Below, one piece after another: positions 710 to 25,126 of a stretch of 25,290 nucleotides of DNA. Made by a program: the position numbers and the translations under genes. Source of the stretch: a virus (Duplodnaviria > Heunggongvirae > Uroviricota > Caudoviricetes); the IMG/VR virus record IMGVR_UViG_3300042275_000481, positions 102,172-127,461 of that record. One strand, 5' to 3'. The notes below the pieces were generated by a model that did no database searches, was not told where the DNA came from, and saw only the letters and a list, made by a program, of their open reading frames with translations. Every line of letters starts with the position of its first letter. The stretch's first letter is position 1.

Positions 710-1717
710 CTAACTTCTAGACATTTCTTTAATAATTTTTCCATCTTTTATTAAAGTAATATCCATGCTTTCGATAGTCGTTGAACTTTCATTGAAAAAT
801 TCGTTTAAAATATTATCTAAATTATCTTTTTCCCAATAAGGGATTCTAAGAAGTGTGGTATTTTTATCTTTACAATAGTTATTCTTTATACCATCATTTC
901 TTTTAGTTGCTAAATATTTTTCTTTTGTATATATACCTCTGAAGTTTCCATAAAAATGAAAATTTCCATCATATTCTATTAATGATATCACATTATTATC
1001 TGAATCTAAAATTGCAATATCAAATGGTAAATATTTTTGATATTTACAATCTTTAAATATATACTGTGTTTCAAATCTAATATTATTATCATTCAAATAT
1101 TTAGCAATAGATCTTTCACCAGTAGATCTAATTTTTCTTTTCTTATCACAAACAGGACACTTACCATCTTTAAGAAATTTTACAGGTTTAACATTAAACT
1201 CATATCCACATTTATTATGTTTCATTTTTATATATGTTAAATTTGTTTTATATTCTCCTAATACAGTAAAAGAATTTTTATATTTTTCAACAACTTCTTT
1301 TTTAAATTGAGATGTTGTTTTTTTAGGAGTTCCGTAACAATGTGGACATCCTGTACCTTTTTTCGTTCCTGTGCCTGCAAAATTTAAAGCATTTGTAGAA
1401 AATGTTTTTCCACAAATATTATGTCTAATAGTTATTTCTTTTCCTAAACCTCTATACTCAGAAATAACATCATAATCTGTACCATGTTCTTTTAAAATTC
1501 TTTCTTCATATTCCTTATGAGTAAGTTTTCTATTTCCAGTACAGTTCGGACATGTTTGAAATCTTAGAAAAACATCTGGTGTTGTTTTTCATTTATAACC
1601 ACATTCTAGACACTCAAACTCAATTTTAGTTTTAGTGTTTTTATATGGTTCATTTGTTTTAATTTTATTAGATAATATTCTTTTTTGAAATTCTTTTTCT
1701 GTCATCTTTTTTGGCAT
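710..1717 (-). CDS. Intron-encoded homing endonuclease: three Zn-ribbon repeats plus Vsr-like/EDxHD PD-(D/E)XK domain; 335 aa if TGA=Trp
   Basis: RBS AAGGAGG, ATG at 1717, one in-frame TGA at 1589-1591 (CGYK*KTTP), then continuous into the listed 171-aa ORF. Repeated CG.(W/F)...CPxC units and FDIAIL...IEYDGNFH. Confidence 0.85.
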
Positions 1718-1864
1718 AAGAATTTCCTCCTTTTTCAATGCTTAGCTGCTGATTGCCCAATCTTTCAAATTTTTAAACATTCACGCTTATCTTTACAGAT
1801 TACGTTGTAGTTTTGAAAGCTCTAAGGGGTTTCCAGCAATTAGAAGCGTTTTTCATTAGAACTT

Positions 1865-1876
1865 TAATTAATTGTT
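1865..1876 (-). promoter_or_regulatory. AACA-N6-TA late-promoter-like motif inside the intron, upstream of the intron endonuclease
   Basis: AACAattaatTA. Confidence 0.6.
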
Positions 1877-1901
1877 CTAAATCAGGGACTATATTTTTTT
1901 A

Positions 1902-2359
1902 ATCCCATAATAGGAGTTAGCTAGCACTTTATATGTTAACTGTAGAATCTTGTAGTATATATACTGGTCTGAGCCGTATGGACTCGCTTCCATTTTCTTT
2001 TTATATACTTTACGAGAGTCTAGTAGAAATTTAAGTGCCATCGAACCGATATTTACCGAGTTCTTTTGGTCTTTGTATAATACTGCGTATCCAGATAAGA
2101 TATATTCAGTATTTAGGAATAAGTCGATAAACTGTTCCTGTGTCATCACAAGATTTTCGTTACTGGTATTTGAATATAAACGTCCGTTAGCTAAACGGCG
2201 TTGCTCATATTTTGACAAGAGTAATTGTTTAAGTTCTTCGTTGCTTACTTCTTCTTTTGTATATATCTTCCTCAATCGTGAGAACTGTTCTTTGAGCCAT
2301 AACTGTTTGAAGGTTATATGTTTAGAATAGTCTCTATTTTTTCTAATTTCCAAATTCAT
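1902..2359 (-). CDS. Family B DNA polymerase (phiKZ/AR9-type), exon 1
   Basis: RBS GAGGAG then ATG at 2359. Encodes SGY..LY, R..YKKKM and motif B QLTYKVLANSYYG. The frame runs into a group I intron after GGG AT. Confidence 0.9.
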
Positions 2360-2383
2360 CGTGTCACTCCTCGTTGTCAATTT

Positions 2384-2923
2384 TTATTTCAGCATAAGCC
2401 ATAGATAAATATCTTCTGGTAGATTTGGATTCATTCTTAAATCTGTGTAACAACATTCCATTTCTTTGATTCTATCTTCTGTATTCATATCTCTAATTCC
2501 ATACAGAAAATCTTCAAAACCAGTGAGTAATTTTGCTACATCGTCTAAGTCAAGTTGGTCGTAGTCAGTGAATACTAGTTCATATACTCTCATATCTAGC
2601 ATATACACTAATCCGTAAACTTCTCCCTCTACTTCTACCTCTTCATATTCATAGTCACTTTCTGTTAAAATACGTCTTTCTTTAAATAATATATTAAGTC
2701 GTCTATCATAATCAATAGTTCCTTTTTTCTTAAAGAATGAAATATAAAGTTTTTGTATTTCGTACATAGGTGAAATATATTTATCAATTTGAAAATAAAC
2801 AGAATCATCTTTAAGATAGTTATCTATAAGCGGAGAATTATTAATATAATCCGAAACTACTCTTTCCAACAACTCATCATCATTAAAATACATGTCAATA
2901 ACTTCTTGCATAGCTAGTTTCAT
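2384..2923 (-). CDS. Hypothetical acidic protein, 179 aa
   Basis: ORF with AAAGGAG RBS, tightly packed in the operon upstream of the polymerase; no family recognised. Confidence 0.8.
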   Translation of the reverse strand: MKLAMQEVIDMYFNDDELLERVVSDYINNSPLIDNYLKDDSVYFQIDKYISPMYEIQKLYISFFKKKGTIDYDRRLNILFKERRILTESDYEYEEVEVEGEVYGLVYMLDMRVYELVFTDYDQLDLDDVAKLLTGFEDFLYGIRDMNTEDRIKEMECCYTDLRMNPNLPEDIYLWLMLK

Positions 2924-2940
2924 ATAATTCTCCTTTCTTA

Positions 2941-22498: not shown

Positions 22499-22526
22499 TT
22501 TTTAGACCTCCTTATTGTATCTGTAA

Positions 22527-22538
22527 TAAAAATTTGTT
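22527..22538 (-). promoter_or_regulatory. AACA-N6-TA motif upstream of the 22498 gene
   Basis: AACAaattttTA. Confidence 0.65.
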
Positions 22539-22554
22539 GAAAATTTTTTAAATA

Positions 22555-22586
22555 TTAAAAAAAGTAATTCCTTGAAGGAATTACTT
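22555..22586 (-). terminator. Terminator overlapping the stop of the 184-aa gene
   Basis: AAGTAATTCCT/AGGAATTACTT stem with a U-run on the minus strand. Confidence 0.8.
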
Positions 22587-23135
22587 AATTAGTGAAATAA
22601 GGTCATTGTAATCTTTAATTTCTCTGTTCTTAGTAGCTAATTTAGAATTAAATTGTGCCACTTGACCAGCTTTGCTTGCATATGCTGAAAGTTTCGATTG
22701 AAGTGTATTAAGACTTCCCATTAATTCAGCAAATTTAGCAGACTGACTTTCACCTGTTAAGATAAATTCAGGGTATTTGTTTTTTAAGATTTCTTGTGTT
22801 TTCAACTCTGCGTATATATCGAAGAAATTAAATGCTTCTAGATTAATAGCAGCAGCTGCAACACCCTTATTATATTTTTGTTGAAGTGAAGTTAAAGCAT
22901 CTTTTTTGACAGCTGGAGATGCAATAATACTCAAATCGTGTTGAATCATATTTTTTACTGCATTGAAGTTTTCTTCTGAATAAAACACTGCCATTTCCTT
23001 AATTGCAGATTTTAATAGAACTTGTCTTTTCAAGCCTTTAAGTAATTTCTTACCTTGTTTAAGTGCATCATCTGCACTAGCTATCTCAACTAGCTTTTTA
23101 CTTTTAGCTTGTAAATCTTTTAGAAATTTATCCAT
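22581..23135 (-). CDS. Hypothetical helical protein, 184 aa
   Basis: Own late-promoter motif, AGGAG RBS and terminator. Confidence 0.78.
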   Translation of the reverse strand: MDKFLKDLQAKSKKLVEIASADDALKQGKKLLKGLKRQVLLKSAIKEMAVFYSEENFNAVKNMIQHDLSIIASPAVKKDALTSLQQKYNKGVAAAAINLEAFNFFDIYAELKTQEILKNKYPEFILTGESQSAKFAELMGSLNTLQSKLSAYASKAGQVAQFNSKLATKNREIKDYNDLISLIK

Positions 23136-23167
23136 ATTTACACACTCCTTATAGTCGTATTCACATA

Positions 23168-23179
23168 TAATTAATTGTT
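23168..23179 (-). promoter_or_regulatory. AACA-N6-TA motif upstream of the 23135 gene
   Basis: AACAattaatTAtatgtg. Confidence 0.72.
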
Positions 23180-25126
23180 CTACTTGTTCAAATCGAGAAT
23201 CTGATTAATCAATGCTGAACGAGATTTGTTTTCTTGGAGCTTTTCAGTTCTTTCTCTAATATAATCAAATGCCTGGGTATTAACGCTTGCTAAATCGTCC
23301 ATCTTATTTGCTTGTCCAATAATAGACTCAATTCTTCGTATATCTTCTGAAGATGAAACTGTTTTGACATTGCTTGTCGATGGCATAGGGCTTATTTTGA
23401 ACTTTTTCTGTAAATTGGTTCCAAAGTGAAGCGCCCATCTGAAAATTAAATATGACATCAAGTTATCATCGTGTTCGCCTTCAGCATGTTCGATCTTACC
23501 ATTTGGTTTCTTTTCTAGTGTTTGAATATCTTTATATAATCTTCTTGAAACGATTTTGTCATATTCATAATCAACGATTTCAGGAAGTACATCAAACATC
23601 TGGTTACGTGTTACTCTATTTGTCTCTACACCATAAACGATAGCTTTCGTATTTTTCTTAACAGTAAACCCATCTTTTTGAGTTTTTTCACCTTTTTTGA
23701 CACGTTCTTCTCTATACATACGCGGTTCTATGATTCTATCTTTCATAAGATTATGAACGATATTTAGACCATAACTGTTGCGCTCTACAATTAGAATAGC
23801 GTTTCTAAACCAAGTGTGCATAAGCTCTTTTATTAGTTCTCTGAAGCTGTCTGTGTCAATAACATTACTTACAAACTCACCAACAACTCGGAAGTCATCA
23901 GGAGCAATGATTGTAATAACCGACCTGTCTCGGCTCAGACCACCTGCAACGTCACAACTTAGTATATAGTTTACTTTTAAGTCAGGTGTCTCAAAGAAAT
24001 CAACTGCATAACCATTAACAAAGATAGATGTGACTGGATCCTTAAGGAACTCGAATATCTTGTCTAATTGTTTTTCGTCAAATACTGAGGTCTCAGTTGA
24101 ACGAGGTCATTCAAGTAGTATCTCACGTTTAATTTTAGCCTCATTTCCTTGCATAAGCCTAAGCTGAGTTTTAAGTCACTTATCACTATGACCAAGTTCT
24201 TTATATGTAAATTCAACATGAAGGAAACTGTTTTCTGAATTCTTTTCAATATATTCCTCTAATTCTGGGTCTGTCATGTCAAAACACTCTAAACGCCATC
24301 TTGCAGCGTTATCAATGAATAGTTTTGCATATGCTCCTTGTTTTGTATCTACGTTATTTGGTGTTGTTGTAATAGTAATGCCATATGGAACACCGTTAGC
24401 CTTAGCATTCTTAGACGCTGCTGACCATGCAGGAAGGGCTGCTTCATATATAATATTATTTCTTGAGAGGAAGGCAAACTCATCAAAGTATATGTTAGAG
24501 GTTGTCATACCACGGCCAAGTTTATCAGCAGCTTCATCACTATTTGCAGCAGGCATTGCTTTTAATGTATTATTTCTATTAAATATAAGTTTTTCTTCAA
24601 TGTTATCACGATCTTTATGATTTGCAACCATACCAACTAACCATTGAGGGAGTCTCTCTTTAAGGTCTTTAAATTTCTTTAATGCGTCTTTACTATCTTT
24701 AAATTCTTTATTTGAGTATATAATATTAGTATTGGTACCAGCAAATAATAGAATCCAACTGTCATAGGCAATCTCTCCAATTGTTTTACCATGCTGACGT
24801 GGAAGAATAGTAATCTGATTCTTATTTTTTGTTTTAATATATGTTAGAGACATATTTCCAAGATTTAGTTTATATGGAATACCGTCAATTTGACCATCAA
24901 CAGGAATTCTTACAACTTCTCTTAAATAATACCATATATTAACTGTACACTCTTCAAATATTTCCAGTTTTTGTTTGTTTGTTAGATTCTTAGAATGAGG
25001 GTCCACTCCAACTAAACTCTCATTATGCAGCACTAGCATAAATTTGTTATTCTTTACATTACGCTTTCTTAGGTCTACTGAGGTTTTCAGAAAAGACCTA
25101 TTACGTGTGCTTATATCATAAATCAT
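23180..25126 (-). CDS. terL: Terminase large subunit, 648 aa with two in-frame TGA (24176, 24107) read as Trp
   Basis: ATPase part: ILPRQHGKT (Walker A), IYFDEFAF (Walker B), ITTTPN. Nuclease part: SCDVAGG, IVERNSYG, HDDNLMS. Single frame with no TAA/TAG. RBS GAAGGTGA before the ATG at 25126. Confidence 0.93.

What the first reader, a model, noticed from the sequence alone, without database searches (positions are those of the whole stretch)
1589..25126. UGA-Trp codons fall in late-promoter genes and avoid the apparent early operons: possible temporal code switch
Seen: four of the five UGA-containing genes (intron endonuclease, GIY-YIG, 22498 gene, terminase) have their own AACA-N6-TA motif, and the fifth lies downstream in the same minus-strand run. 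Genes behind ATATATTAT motifs (polymerase exons, HAM1, HNH, radical SAM, Ntn protease, AI-2E) have about 16 TGG and no TGA, either as Trp or as stop. Known: stop-codon recoding concentrated in late structural/lysis genes has been reported for recoded gut phages. Inference: early genes are code-neutral and late genes need a phage-supplied decoder. Caveat: by a rough binomial estimate zero of 16 has about an 8 percent chance, and the capsid gene also has none (6 TGG).
Basis: partly seen in the sequence, partly recalled or inferred. Interest (0 to 1): 0.7.

Follow-up and report, generated by a model that had tools for sequence, protein, structure and literature searches.

The report
Late-gene TGA-as-tryptophan in AR9-like phage
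An uncultivated relative of the giant Bacillus phage AR9 spells some tryptophans with the stop codon TGA, and only in genes with late-type promoters; this skew is already known from recoded gut phages, and whatever reads TGA was not found.

Summary
The window is the last 25 kb of a 127-kb, roughly half-complete contig of an AR9/PBS1-like jumbo phage. TGA codes for Trp: 19 of 20 in-frame TGAs lie inside continuous homology, many at conserved W, and TGG/TGA swap between orthologues of a relative. TGA is essentially never a stop (0-1 of 131 genes, against 29/283 in AR9).

The genome has two strong promoter classes matching AR9's early and late consensus. Outside homing endonucleases, early units hold 0 TGA/98 TGG and late units 9/86 (p=0.0014). 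In the window alone it is 0/19 against 8/32 (p=0.045).

The result depends on the homing endonucleases (11 TGA/19 TGG). They sit inside early operons, but each TGA-bearing one has its own late-type core motif.

Its ATATATTAT lies inside a strong late motif.

A closer relative (G001) repeats the skew. A more distant one (L025) has TGA-Trp in the syntenic early HNH-HAM1-DNA polymerase operon, so the restriction is not universal.

No tRNA, release factor or TrpRS was found in the contig, so the "phage-supplied decoder" is unshown and the host's code is unknown.

This is a known phenomenon (Borges et al.) in a new lineage. This scan already reported it on another window of this genome (e1-5414452) and on other genomes.

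The parts
23180..25126 (-). Large terminase gene (true start ATG at 25126). TGA-Trp codons at 24176-24178 (W338) and 24107-24109 (W361), plus 7 TGG.
   Evidence: 42% identity to BpSp terminase, with both TGAs aligned to W. TGG in L016; TGA and TGG in L014. SD-backed start at codon 21 of the longest ORF.
25145..25164 (-). Strong late-type promoter motif (TAAACAAATCATTATATGAA) upstream of terminase. It is paired back to back with a plus-strand late motif at 25183-25202.
   Evidence: PWM scores 21.9 and 16.4; sequences checked.
21695..22498 (-). 267-aa late gene of unknown function. TGA codon at 22079-22081 (residue 140), no TGG.
   Evidence: aligns 1-266 at 72% identity to a single gene in L014/L015; the TGA aligns to Val there, so it is read through as sense. 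No Pfam hit.
23162..23181 (-). Strong late-type promoter motif driving genes 22581-23135, 21695-22498, 21251-21694 and 20517-21248.
   Evidence: PWM score 24.0; AGAACAATTAATTATATGTG.
20526..20545 (-). Strong late-type promoter motif driving 19893-20501 through 17855-18592. The unit includes ORF 19003-19341.
   Evidence: PWM score 26.0. The last gene of the unit, 17855-18592, is a homologue of the AR9 late virion protein g125.
19003..19341 (-). Small orphan ORF with a TGA at 19090-19092. It is either an 83-aa gene ending in the contig's only candidate TGA stop, or a 112-aa gene with TGA-Trp that overlaps the next gene by 32 nt.
   Evidence: the only database hit is the 83-aa form of itself; absent between the two flanking paralogues in L014/L015.
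710..1738 (-). Homing endonuclease (treble-clef zinc fingers, AR9 g146/g147/g188-like) inside the split DNA polymerase gene. TGA-Trp at 1589-1591, 1 TGG.
   Evidence: the TGA aligns to the W/Y/F position of the C-x-H-x-W finger repeat. Flanking ORFs 2-553 and 1889-2380 match successive parts of AR9 DNA polymerase g152.
1865..1876 (-). Late-type 12-nt core AACAATTAATTA, 127 nt upstream of the intron endonuclease ORF.
   Evidence: the core AACAAWWWATTA occurs 29 times in the genome, against 2.6 in shuffles, and nearly all copies lie just upstream of genes.
6602..7261 (-). Free-standing GIY-YIG/NUMOD homing endonuclease. TGA-Trp at 7085-7087, 7061-7063 and 6617-6619, 1 TGG.
   Evidence: GIY-YIG, NUMOD3, I-HmuI NUMOD-like. 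W67 and W215 align to W of the L016 homologue.
7268..7279 (-). Late-type core AACAATTAATTA, 7 nt upstream of the GIY-YIG ORF.
6567..6586 (-). Strong late-type promoter motif before the prohead protease gene (5698-6528) and 4222-5685. Together these hold 5 TGG and no TGA.
   Evidence: PWM score 24.6. Peptidase_S77. The AR9 g114 homologue is late in AR9.
4109..4132 (-). Early-type promoter motif (ATATATTAT-N6-G) driving HNH (3531-4088), HAM1 (2941-3513), 2384-2923 and the DNA polymerase exons. No TGA as sense or stop.
   Evidence: PWM score 19.9. Pfam. AR9 DNA polymerase g152 is an early gene.
9900..9923 (-). Early-type promoter motif driving radical SAM (8924-9823), 8654-8911, a proteasome-like Ntn hydrolase (8088-8651), 7745-8074 and 7307-7717. 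4 TGG, no TGA.
   Evidence: PWM score 17.3. Pfam.
14288..14311 (-). Strong early-type promoter motif driving the 507-aa Hef-like homing endonuclease (12553-14076). This is the one endonuclease with an early promoter; it has 7 TGG and no TGA.
   Evidence: PWM score 25.1..
16399..16418 (-). Strong late-type motif (TTAACAATATATTATATGAA) before the AI-2E transporter gene (15174-16403, 6 TGG) and 14463-15170. It is paired with a plus-strand late motif at 16426-16445.
   Evidence: PWM scores 22.6 and 24.8. Pfam AI-2E_transport. The L014 orthologue has TGA at W16. 14463-15170 is a homologue of AR9 late virion protein g112.
10739..12514 (+). Major capsid gene, late. 6 TGG, no TGA. Late-type core at 10700-10711.
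   Evidence: 36% identity to AR9 major head protein..

Best explanation
The phage probably infects a host that reads UGA as stop, and UGA comes to be read as Trp only some time after infection starts.

Shown:
- Genes translated at once carry no TGA at all. These are the genes behind the early promoter class, which in AR9 is read by the injected virion RNA polymerase.
- TGA has been purged as a stop codon from every gene.
- Genes behind the late promoter class (read in AR9 by the non-virion polymerase) carry TGA at about 10% of Trp codons.
- Homing endonucleases that are unavoidably co-transcribed with early genes, but have their own late core motif, carry TGA at about 50% of Trp codons.

Inferred:
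- The timing itself is taken from AR9, not measured here.
- TGA acts as a second, translational lock that keeps late proteins and intron nucleases from being made off early or read-through transcripts.
- The decoder is probably a UCA suppressor tRNA or a change to host RF2 or tRNA-Trp, encoded on the missing half of the genome.
For: TGA codes for Trp:
- Terminase.
- The invariant W373 of the 644-aa late protein.
- The conserved GTW repeat of the 1333-aa late protein.
- The NLEW and IWK motifs of HNH/NUMOD4 and the treble-clef fingers.
- GIY-YIG.
- Six TGG/TGA swaps against L014.

Two promoter classes:
- 16 strong early motifs and about 21 strong late motifs, which match the AR9 consensus from PMC5312081.
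- The motifs are conserved in relatives L014, L016, L022, L025 and L027.
- They agree with AR9 timing for 26 of 27 genes with an AR9 counterpart: 25 tblastn orthologues plus RNase H matched by function.

Fisher tests:
- Early 0/98 against late 9/86, p=0.0014. At gene level 0/48 against 8/31, p=0.0003.
- With endonucleases counted by their own motif, 0/73 against 20/141, p=0.0006.
- Endonucleases with a late core, 11/10, against other late genes, 9/86, p=3e-5.
- The one endonuclease with an early promoter has 0 TGA/7 TGG.
- Replicate in G001: 0/7 against 19/28, p=0.044.

Controls and context:
- The same pipeline on AR9 gives 29/283 TGA stops and one interior TGA.
- TGA is far below the 73-92% A-ending share of other NNR codon pairs. 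This argues against a host that has long used table 4.
- Relatives L016, L017 and L022 have no sense TGA.
- Sense TGA is rarely followed by T: 4/45 against 61/271 for TGG, p=0.045. In AR9, 14/28 true TGA stops are followed by T. This is the pattern expected under competition with RF2.
Against: - No decoder was found. The 127 kb and about 140 kb of relatives' fragments hold no tRNA, and no RF or TrpRS turned up in Pfam scans.
- L025 has 7 TGA against 6 TGG in the syntenic early operon, so a late-only window is not a rule of the clade.
- Timing is inferred from motifs and AR9 homology, not measured.
- If homing endonucleases are counted as early by position, the skew disappears (p=0.82).
- The test using only AR9-orthologue timing is not significant on its own (0/29 against 5/47, p=0.15).
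- Codons within one gene are not independent.
- The 3' context bias is marginal.
Confidence: 0.55

Rival explanations
1. UGA is readable as Trp throughout infection. Either the host itself uses table 4 or a decoder acts from the first minutes. On this view the early/late skew in this genome is history rather than regulation: TGG-to-TGA drift has only begun, and TGA-rich late modules and mobile endonucleases were imported by recombination from more heavily recoded relatives.
For: - L025 has TGA-Trp in the early HNH-HAM1-DNA polymerase operon.
- The clade shows a graded series of TGA share of Trp codons: L016/L017/L022 about 0, this genome about 8%, L014 and L025 about 35-40%.
- Endonucleases are mobile and are the most TGA-rich genes.
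- No decoder gene was found in the phage DNA at hand.
Against: - Zero TGA in 98 early Trp codons against 9.5% in late genes is unlikely under a single rate (p about 0.001), and the skew repeats in G001.
- Within one family, the endonuclease with an early promoter has 0/7 while those with late cores have 11/10.
- In a 32% GC genome under a long-standing table 4, TGA would be expected to dominate (other NNR pairs are 73-92% A-ending).
- Relatives with no sense TGA, and some that use TGA stops (L026, L027, L030), point to a standard-code ancestry.
Confidence: 0.27
2. There is no dedicated decoder. Host tRNA-Trp(CCA) misreads UGA at a low rate, as reported for Bacillus subtilis (recalled from memory, not checked here). 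On this view TGA is an attenuator that lowers the yield of proteins needed in small amounts, such as terminase and nucleases.
For: - No tRNA or release factor gene in the contig.
- TGA-bearing genes include terminase and five endonucleases, all needed at low copy number.
- TGA-T, the strong termination context, is avoided.
Against: - TGAs also sit in a tail-tube-like protein (Phage_TTP_15) and in large virion proteins of 644, 960 and 1333 aa, which are needed in many copies.
- L014 terminase has five TGAs. At a few percent read-through each, that would abolish the protein.
- The complete purge of TGA stops from all genes is not explained by weak read-through.
Confidence: 0.1
3. The skew is a chance or annotation artefact. 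On this view the in-frame TGAs are pseudogene lesions or gene junctions, and the promoter classes are over-read AT-rich strings.
For: - The loose AACA-N6-TA pattern occurs 249 times in the genome and is only about twofold enriched in intergenic DNA.
- Many apparent N-terminal TGAs were artefacts of longest-ORF calling.
Against: - 19 of 20 curated TGAs lie inside continuous homology, many at invariant W.
- The extended motifs are highly specific: the 12-nt late core occurs 29 times against 2.6 in shuffles.
- The motifs are conserved in five related phages and agree with AR9 timing.
- The AR9 control gives only one interior TGA.
Confidence: 0.03

Closest known systems
TGA-to-Trp (code 4 type) recoded phages of gut and rumen microbiomes: Agate, Jade, Sapphire and Topaz clades (Borges et al., bioRxiv 10.1101/2021.08.26.457843)
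   Same: - In-frame TGA aligns to Trp.
- TGA has been lost as a stop codon.
- Recoded codons accumulate in structural and late genes but not in the replication genes.
- Close relatives range from unrecoded to heavily recoded.
- A suppressor tRNA was detectable in only about 35% of such genomes.
   Different: - This is a different lineage: AR9/PBS1-like, with two phage multisubunit RNA polymerases. It came from wastewater-type samples according to an earlier scan note that I did not check.
- Recoding is sparse, about 8% of Trp codons. Coding density rises only from 0.890 to 0.902 under table 4, so density-based screens would miss it.
- Temporal class can be read gene by gene from two promoter motifs that were mapped experimentally in AR9.
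- The most TGA-rich genes are homing endonucleases, not lysis genes. No lysis gene was identified on this half of the genome.
Bacillus phage AR9 / PBS1 (Takahashivirus), with early and late promoters mapped by Lavysh et al. 2017 (PMC5312081)
   Same: - Homologous capsid (36% identity) and terminase.
- Homologous non-virion and virion RNA polymerase subunits.
- A DNA polymerase gene split by endonuclease-bearing introns.
- Early consensus ATATATTAT-N6-G and late consensus AACA-N6-TA.
- Endonucleases such as AR9 g079, g146, g147 and g188 are late in AR9.
   Different: - AR9 uses the standard code: 29/283 TGA stops and one interior TGA by my pipeline.
- The late motif here is longer: AACAATWAATTATATGA.
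- Protein identities are only 25-50%.
T4 intron-encoded homing endonucleases, expressed late from their own promoters with translation blocked on early transcripts (recalled from memory, not checked here)
   Same: Nuclease genes lie inside early genes, are co-transcribed with them, and are nevertheless held back until late.
   Different: Here the proposed block is a recoded stop codon rather than an RNA structure over the ribosome-binding site. This is inference only.

Membership tests
Stop-codon-recoded phage, TGA read as Trp | In-frame TGA inside conserved genes, aligned to Trp in homologues | tested here: met
Stop-codon-recoded phage, TGA read as Trp | TGA abandoned as a stop codon | tested here: met
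   At most one candidate (19090-19092) among 131 genes, against 29/283 in AR9. At AR9's rate the probability of none is 7e-7.
Stop-codon-recoded phage, TGA read as Trp | Recoded codons enriched in late/structural genes and absent from early/replication genes | tested here: met
   Early 0/98 against late 9/86, p=0.0014. This depends on assigning the endonucleases by their own late core motifs.
Stop-codon-recoded phage, TGA read as Trp | Phage-encoded suppressor tRNA(UCA), with or without RF1 and TrpRS | tested here: inconclusive
   None was found in the 127 kb by ARAGORN (default and relaxed) or by Rfam in gathering mode; the Rfam E-value mode covered all but 2.2 kb (genome 100001-102171). None appeared in the Pfam scans. 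However, the contig is only about half of the genome.
Stop-codon-recoded phage, TGA read as Trp | Host uses the standard code | not testable with these tools
   There are only indirect hints: the low TGA share, unrecoded relatives and avoidance of TGA-T.
AR9/PBS1-like jumbo phage with two RNA polymerases | Homologues of the AR9 capsid, terminase, and virion and non-virion RNA polymerase subunits | tested here: met
   homologues of g117, g121, g264, g270 and g154. Several subunits, the portal and the sheath are absent from this half-genome.
AR9/PBS1-like jumbo phage with two RNA polymerases | Early promoter AAATATATATTAT-N6-G and late promoter AACA-N6-TA/G | tested here: met
   The classes agree with AR9 expression timing for 26 of 27 genes with an AR9 counterpart.
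AR9/PBS1-like jumbo phage with two RNA polymerases | Uracil in place of thymine in virion DNA | not testable with these tools
   There are only hints: a dCMP deaminase homologue and a xanthine/uracil permease.
Phage matched to a table 4 (Mollicutes-type) host | TGA is the main Trp codon and is used in all gene classes | tested here: not met
   About 8% of Trp codons are TGA, and none in early genes, while other NNR pairs are 73-92% A-ending.

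The most novel reading that the evidence does not exclude
The TGA codons serve as a deliberate translational lock, strongest on homing endonucleases that cannot avoid being transcribed with early genes. The late switch to UGA-as-Trp would be made without any phage tRNA, by remodelling host termination or host tRNA-Trp (for example by inactivating RF2 or altering the anticodon), in a phage whose own two RNA polymerases already separate early from late transcription.
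Probability: 0.12. Interest if true: 0.7.

Novelty: new member of a known kind. Interest (0 to 1): 0.38.

Why it matters
Late-gene stop-codon recoding is already described, so the phenomenon itself is not new. This lineage adds three things:

- A cleaner test bed. Each gene's temporal class can be read from two promoter motifs that were mapped experimentally in a cultivable relative (AR9 on Bacillus subtilis), so the "code switch as timer" idea could be tested at promoter resolution.
- A blind spot in current screens. Sparse recoding of a few percent of Trp codons escapes coding-density screens.
- A sharper question. Within one clade there is an unrecoded state, a late-only state and a state that includes early genes. 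The highest TGA density lies in intron and free-standing homing endonucleases. Together these ask whether the recoded stop is selected as a translational lock or merely tolerated.

Tried and rejected
- **Artefact TGAs.** Longest-ORF calling gave 34 in-frame TGAs. Thirteen near N-termini lie upstream of the real starts (SD-backed in all but one case), and in three genes they fall inside the late motif itself, which contains TATATGA. One more lies in a 46-aa ORF inside the DNA polymerase intron region, which I set aside. Another lies inside a group I intron of the non-virion RNA polymerase beta' gene (Rfam). All were dropped.
- **Propagating weak promoters downstream.** Letting the endonucleases' own promoters reclassify downstream genes turned DNA polymerase exons "late". 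This is unrealistic, so I kept it only as a conservative bound (p=0.033).
- **Search for a decoder.** ARAGORN was run at default, with introns and at relaxed thresholds. The relaxed run gave 44 noise calls and none with anticodon UCA. Rfam E-value mode was also run. The 333-kb relative G003 has about 30 tRNAs, including Trp(CCA), and a tmRNA, but no UCA tRNA.
- **Attempts to reach the rest of the genome or large relatives.**
  - The homologue on a 301-kb contig (P0006) is not in IMG/VR.
  - The single metagenome scan returned mostly short contigs.
- **3' context of sense TGA.** T is depleted, but only marginally (p=0.045).
- **AR9-orthologue timing alone.** It points the right way but is not significant (p=0.15).

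Full report
**What the DNA is.** The window is bases 102172-127461 of a single 127,461-bp virus contig with 31.6% GC. Its capsid and terminase are closest to the AR9/PBS1/BpSp group of Bacillus jumbo phages, at 36-41% identity. A local tblastn against the AR9 genome finds about 45 homologous genes. These include:
- non-virion RNA polymerase pieces (AR9 g270, g154);
- a virion RNA polymerase piece (g264);
- a DNA polymerase (g152) split into at least three exons by endonuclease-bearing inserts;
- prohead protease and virion proteins.

Portal, sheath and most RNA polymerase subunits are missing, and the two contig ends cannot be joined. CheckV rates 31-kb relatives at 12% complete. So the contig is about half of a roughly 250-kb genome.

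**TGA is a sense codon for Trp.** I called genes with my own codon-usage caller under table 4. This gave 133 genes at 90% coding, with stops TAA 98 and TAG 35. After curation, 20 in-frame TGAs remain in 13 genes, against 215 TGG.

Evidence that they are read as Trp:
- Terminase W338 and W361 align to W in BpSp and to TGG in relative L016.
- The TGA of the 644-aa late protein falls on an invariant W in six homologues.
- The TGA of the 1333-aa late protein falls on the W of a conserved GTW repeat, and one homologue spans both sides.
- AR9 g212 and g213 homologues run across their TGAs.
- HNH, NUMOD4, treble-clef and GIY-YIG endonucleases have TGA at conserved W or aromatic positions.
- Orthologues in L014 (terminase 71% identical) swap TGG and TGA at six W positions and share one TGA.

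Only the TGA of the orphan ORF at 19003-19341 could be a stop.

As a control, the same pipeline on AR9 gives 29/283 TGA stops and a single interior TGA. This genome gives 18 interior TGAs.

**Two promoter classes.** AR9's early consensus is AAATATATATTAT-N6-G and its late consensus is AACA-N6-TA/G (PMC5312081). Both exist here in sharper form:
- About 16 strong early motifs of the type TTWWWWATATATTATAAAT-N-TG.
- About 21 strong late motifs of the type AACAATWAATTATATGA.

The 12-nt late core AACAAWWWATTA occurs 29 times, against 2.6 in shuffles, almost always 2-130 nt upstream of a gene. Both motifs recur at syntenic places in five related contigs.

For 27 genes with an AR9 counterpart (25 tblastn orthologues plus RNase H matched by function), the promoter class agrees with AR9's 5-minute FPKM class in 26.

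Two traps need noting:
- The late motif contains TGA (TATATGA). This, together with other in-frame TGAs in 5' leaders, accounts for the apparent N-terminal TGAs of longest ORFs.
- The string ATATATTAT also occurs inside late motifs (AACA-ATATAT-TA-T).

**Check of the finding in the window.**
- All eight TGAs are where stated.
- Terminase has a strong late motif.
- The intron endonuclease and the GIY-YIG gene have only the late core.
- The motif before 22498 is weak, but that gene is in a late unit anyway.
This gene in fact sits behind a strong late motif, and its L014 orthologue has a TGA.
- The true early units in the window start at 4109-4132, 9900-9923 and 14288-14311.
- The corrected window tally is early 0 TGA/19 TGG against late 8/32, p=0.045.

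**Genome-wide test.**

| Scheme | Early TGA/TGG | Late TGA/TGG | p |
|---|---|---|---|
| Endonucleases excluded, strong motifs only | 0/98 | 9/86 | 0.0014 |
| Same, at gene level (genes with TGA / genes without) | 0/48 | 8/23 | 0.0003 |
| Endonucleases excluded, weak promoters propagated downstream (conservative) | 0/66 | 9/129 | 0.033 |
| Endonucleases counted by their own late core | 0/73 | 20/141 | 0.0006 |
| Endonucleases counted as early by position | 11/117 | 9/86 | 0.82 |

The nine homing endonucleases hold 11 TGA/19 TGG. They lie inside early operons: in DNA polymerase and ribonucleotide reductase inserts, or free-standing.

The conclusion therefore rests on the endonucleases having their own late promoters. 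Three observations support that:
- the specificity of the core motif;
- the late timing of AR9 g079, g146, g147 and g188;
- an internal contrast, in which the one endonuclease behind a strong early motif (12553-14076) has 7 TGG and no TGA.

Endonucleases with a late core are far richer in TGA (11/10) than other late genes (9/86), p=3e-5.

No early gene uses TGA as a stop. At AR9's rate of TGA stops, the chance of none in 55 genes is 0.003.

**Relatives.**
- G001 (loci L014, L015, L041) repeats the pattern: early units 0/7, late units 19/28, p=0.044.
- L016, L017 and L022 have no sense TGA and almost no TGA stops.
- L025 (capsid 52% identical) has TGA-Trp in the syntenic early operon behind ATATATTAT-N6-G: three in HNH, one in HAM1, one in DNA polymerase and two in a small ORF. 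The HAM1 TGA aligns to the window's TGG.

So the clade spans an unrecoded state, a late-only state and a state that includes early genes.

**The decoder and the host.**
- The contig holds no tRNA, by ARAGORN at default or relaxed settings and by Rfam at gathering threshold. The more permissive Rfam E-value scan also found none, but it left 2.2 kb (genome 100001-102171) unscanned. AR9's tRNA-Asn is found as a positive control.
- Relatives' fragments hold none either.
- Pfam scans of about 80 proteins show no release factor, TrpRS or tRNA-modifying enzyme.
- A complete 333-kb distant relative has about 30 tRNAs, including Trp(CCA), and a tmRNA, but no UCA tRNA.

Because half the genome is missing, absence here proves little. 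Borges et al. likewise found suppressors in only about 35% of code-4 phages.

Indirect hints point to a standard-code host:
- TGA makes up about 8% of Trp codons, while other NNR pairs are 73-92% A-ending.
- Unrecoded relatives exist.
- Sense TGA is seldom followed by T (4/45 against 61/271 for TGG, p=0.045), whereas half of AR9's true TGA stops are.

**Verdict.** The skew is statistically real genome-wide, but it depends on how the endonucleases are classed.

The temporal-switch reading is the best explanation (about 0.55). It is not demonstrated, for three reasons:
- timing is inferred;
- no decoder was found;
- a relative breaks the rule.

The main rival is UGA being readable throughout infection, with the skew left over from recent drift and module exchange (about 0.27).

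The phenomenon is already published for gut phages (10.1101/2021.08.26.457843) and has been surveyed in jumbo phages (PMC13037316). This scan reported it earlier for another window of this same genome (e1-5414452) and for other genomes. It is a new member of a known kind, with two additions: promoter-level resolution and the endonuclease enrichment.

Noticed in passing
window 15174-16403 (-): A phage-borne AI-2E family transporter gene (Pfam 9.6e-39) sits behind a strong late promoter motif. It is conserved in relatives L014/L015 at 53% identity. This is an unusual membrane protein for a late phage operon.
   Followed up: partly
window 7307-9823 (-): An early operon holds a radical SAM protein, a proteasome-like Ntn hydrolase (weak Pfam hit, E=5e-4, below the curated cut-off) and three unknown small proteins. 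Its function is unknown.
   Followed up: no
window 16399-16445 and 25145-25202: Late promoter motifs occur as back-to-back divergent pairs about 8-20 nt apart. The same is seen at genome 30671-30748. The shared extended consensus AACAATWAATTATATGA is longer than AR9's AACA-N6-TA.
   Followed up: partly
window 2-2380 (-) and genome 98579-104551: The DNA polymerase B gene is in at least three pieces separated by three homing endonuclease genes. Rfam recognises only one group I intron here (genome 100409-100711), so the insert around the 710-1738 endonuclease has no recognised intron core.
   Followed up: no
window 18594-19852 (-): Genes 18594-19034 and 19331-19852 are paralogues (about 48% identity through their L014 counterparts). 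The orphan ORF 19003-19341 is inserted between them only in this phage.
   Followed up: partly
L025:1871-5545 (-): This related phage has TGA-Trp codons in its early HNH-HAM1-DNA polymerase operon, and its DNA polymerase is unsplit. This marks a different stage of recoding within the clade.
   Followed up: partly
genome 4138-5247 (-) and 58920-59936 (-) (L007:4138-5247, L009:18920-19936): Early-class auxiliary genes: a xanthine/uracil permease (Pfam 4e-56) and a complete GAPDH (Pfam 4e-59 and 3e-36). The permease is notable in a relative of uracil-DNA phages.
   Followed up: no
all sense TGAs of G000, L014, L041 and L025: The base after a sense TGA is rarely T (4/45). After TGG it is T in 61/271 cases, and after AR9's true TGA stops in 14/28. 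This is a marginal signal (p=0.045) of selection against the strong RF2 termination context.
   Followed up: partly
G003:C1:211001-232000 (L068, L069): A complete 333-kb phage with direct terminal repeats (capsid 42% identical) carries a cluster of about 30 tRNA genes and a tmRNA gene with tag peptide ANKLIANAMINQVVFA.
   Followed up: no
genome 60944-62041 (-) (L010:944-2041): One open frame holds two tandem NUMOD4-HNH_3 endonuclease copies. The first is truncated and the second starts near residue 137. Three TGA codons fall at conserved W positions.
   Followed up: partly
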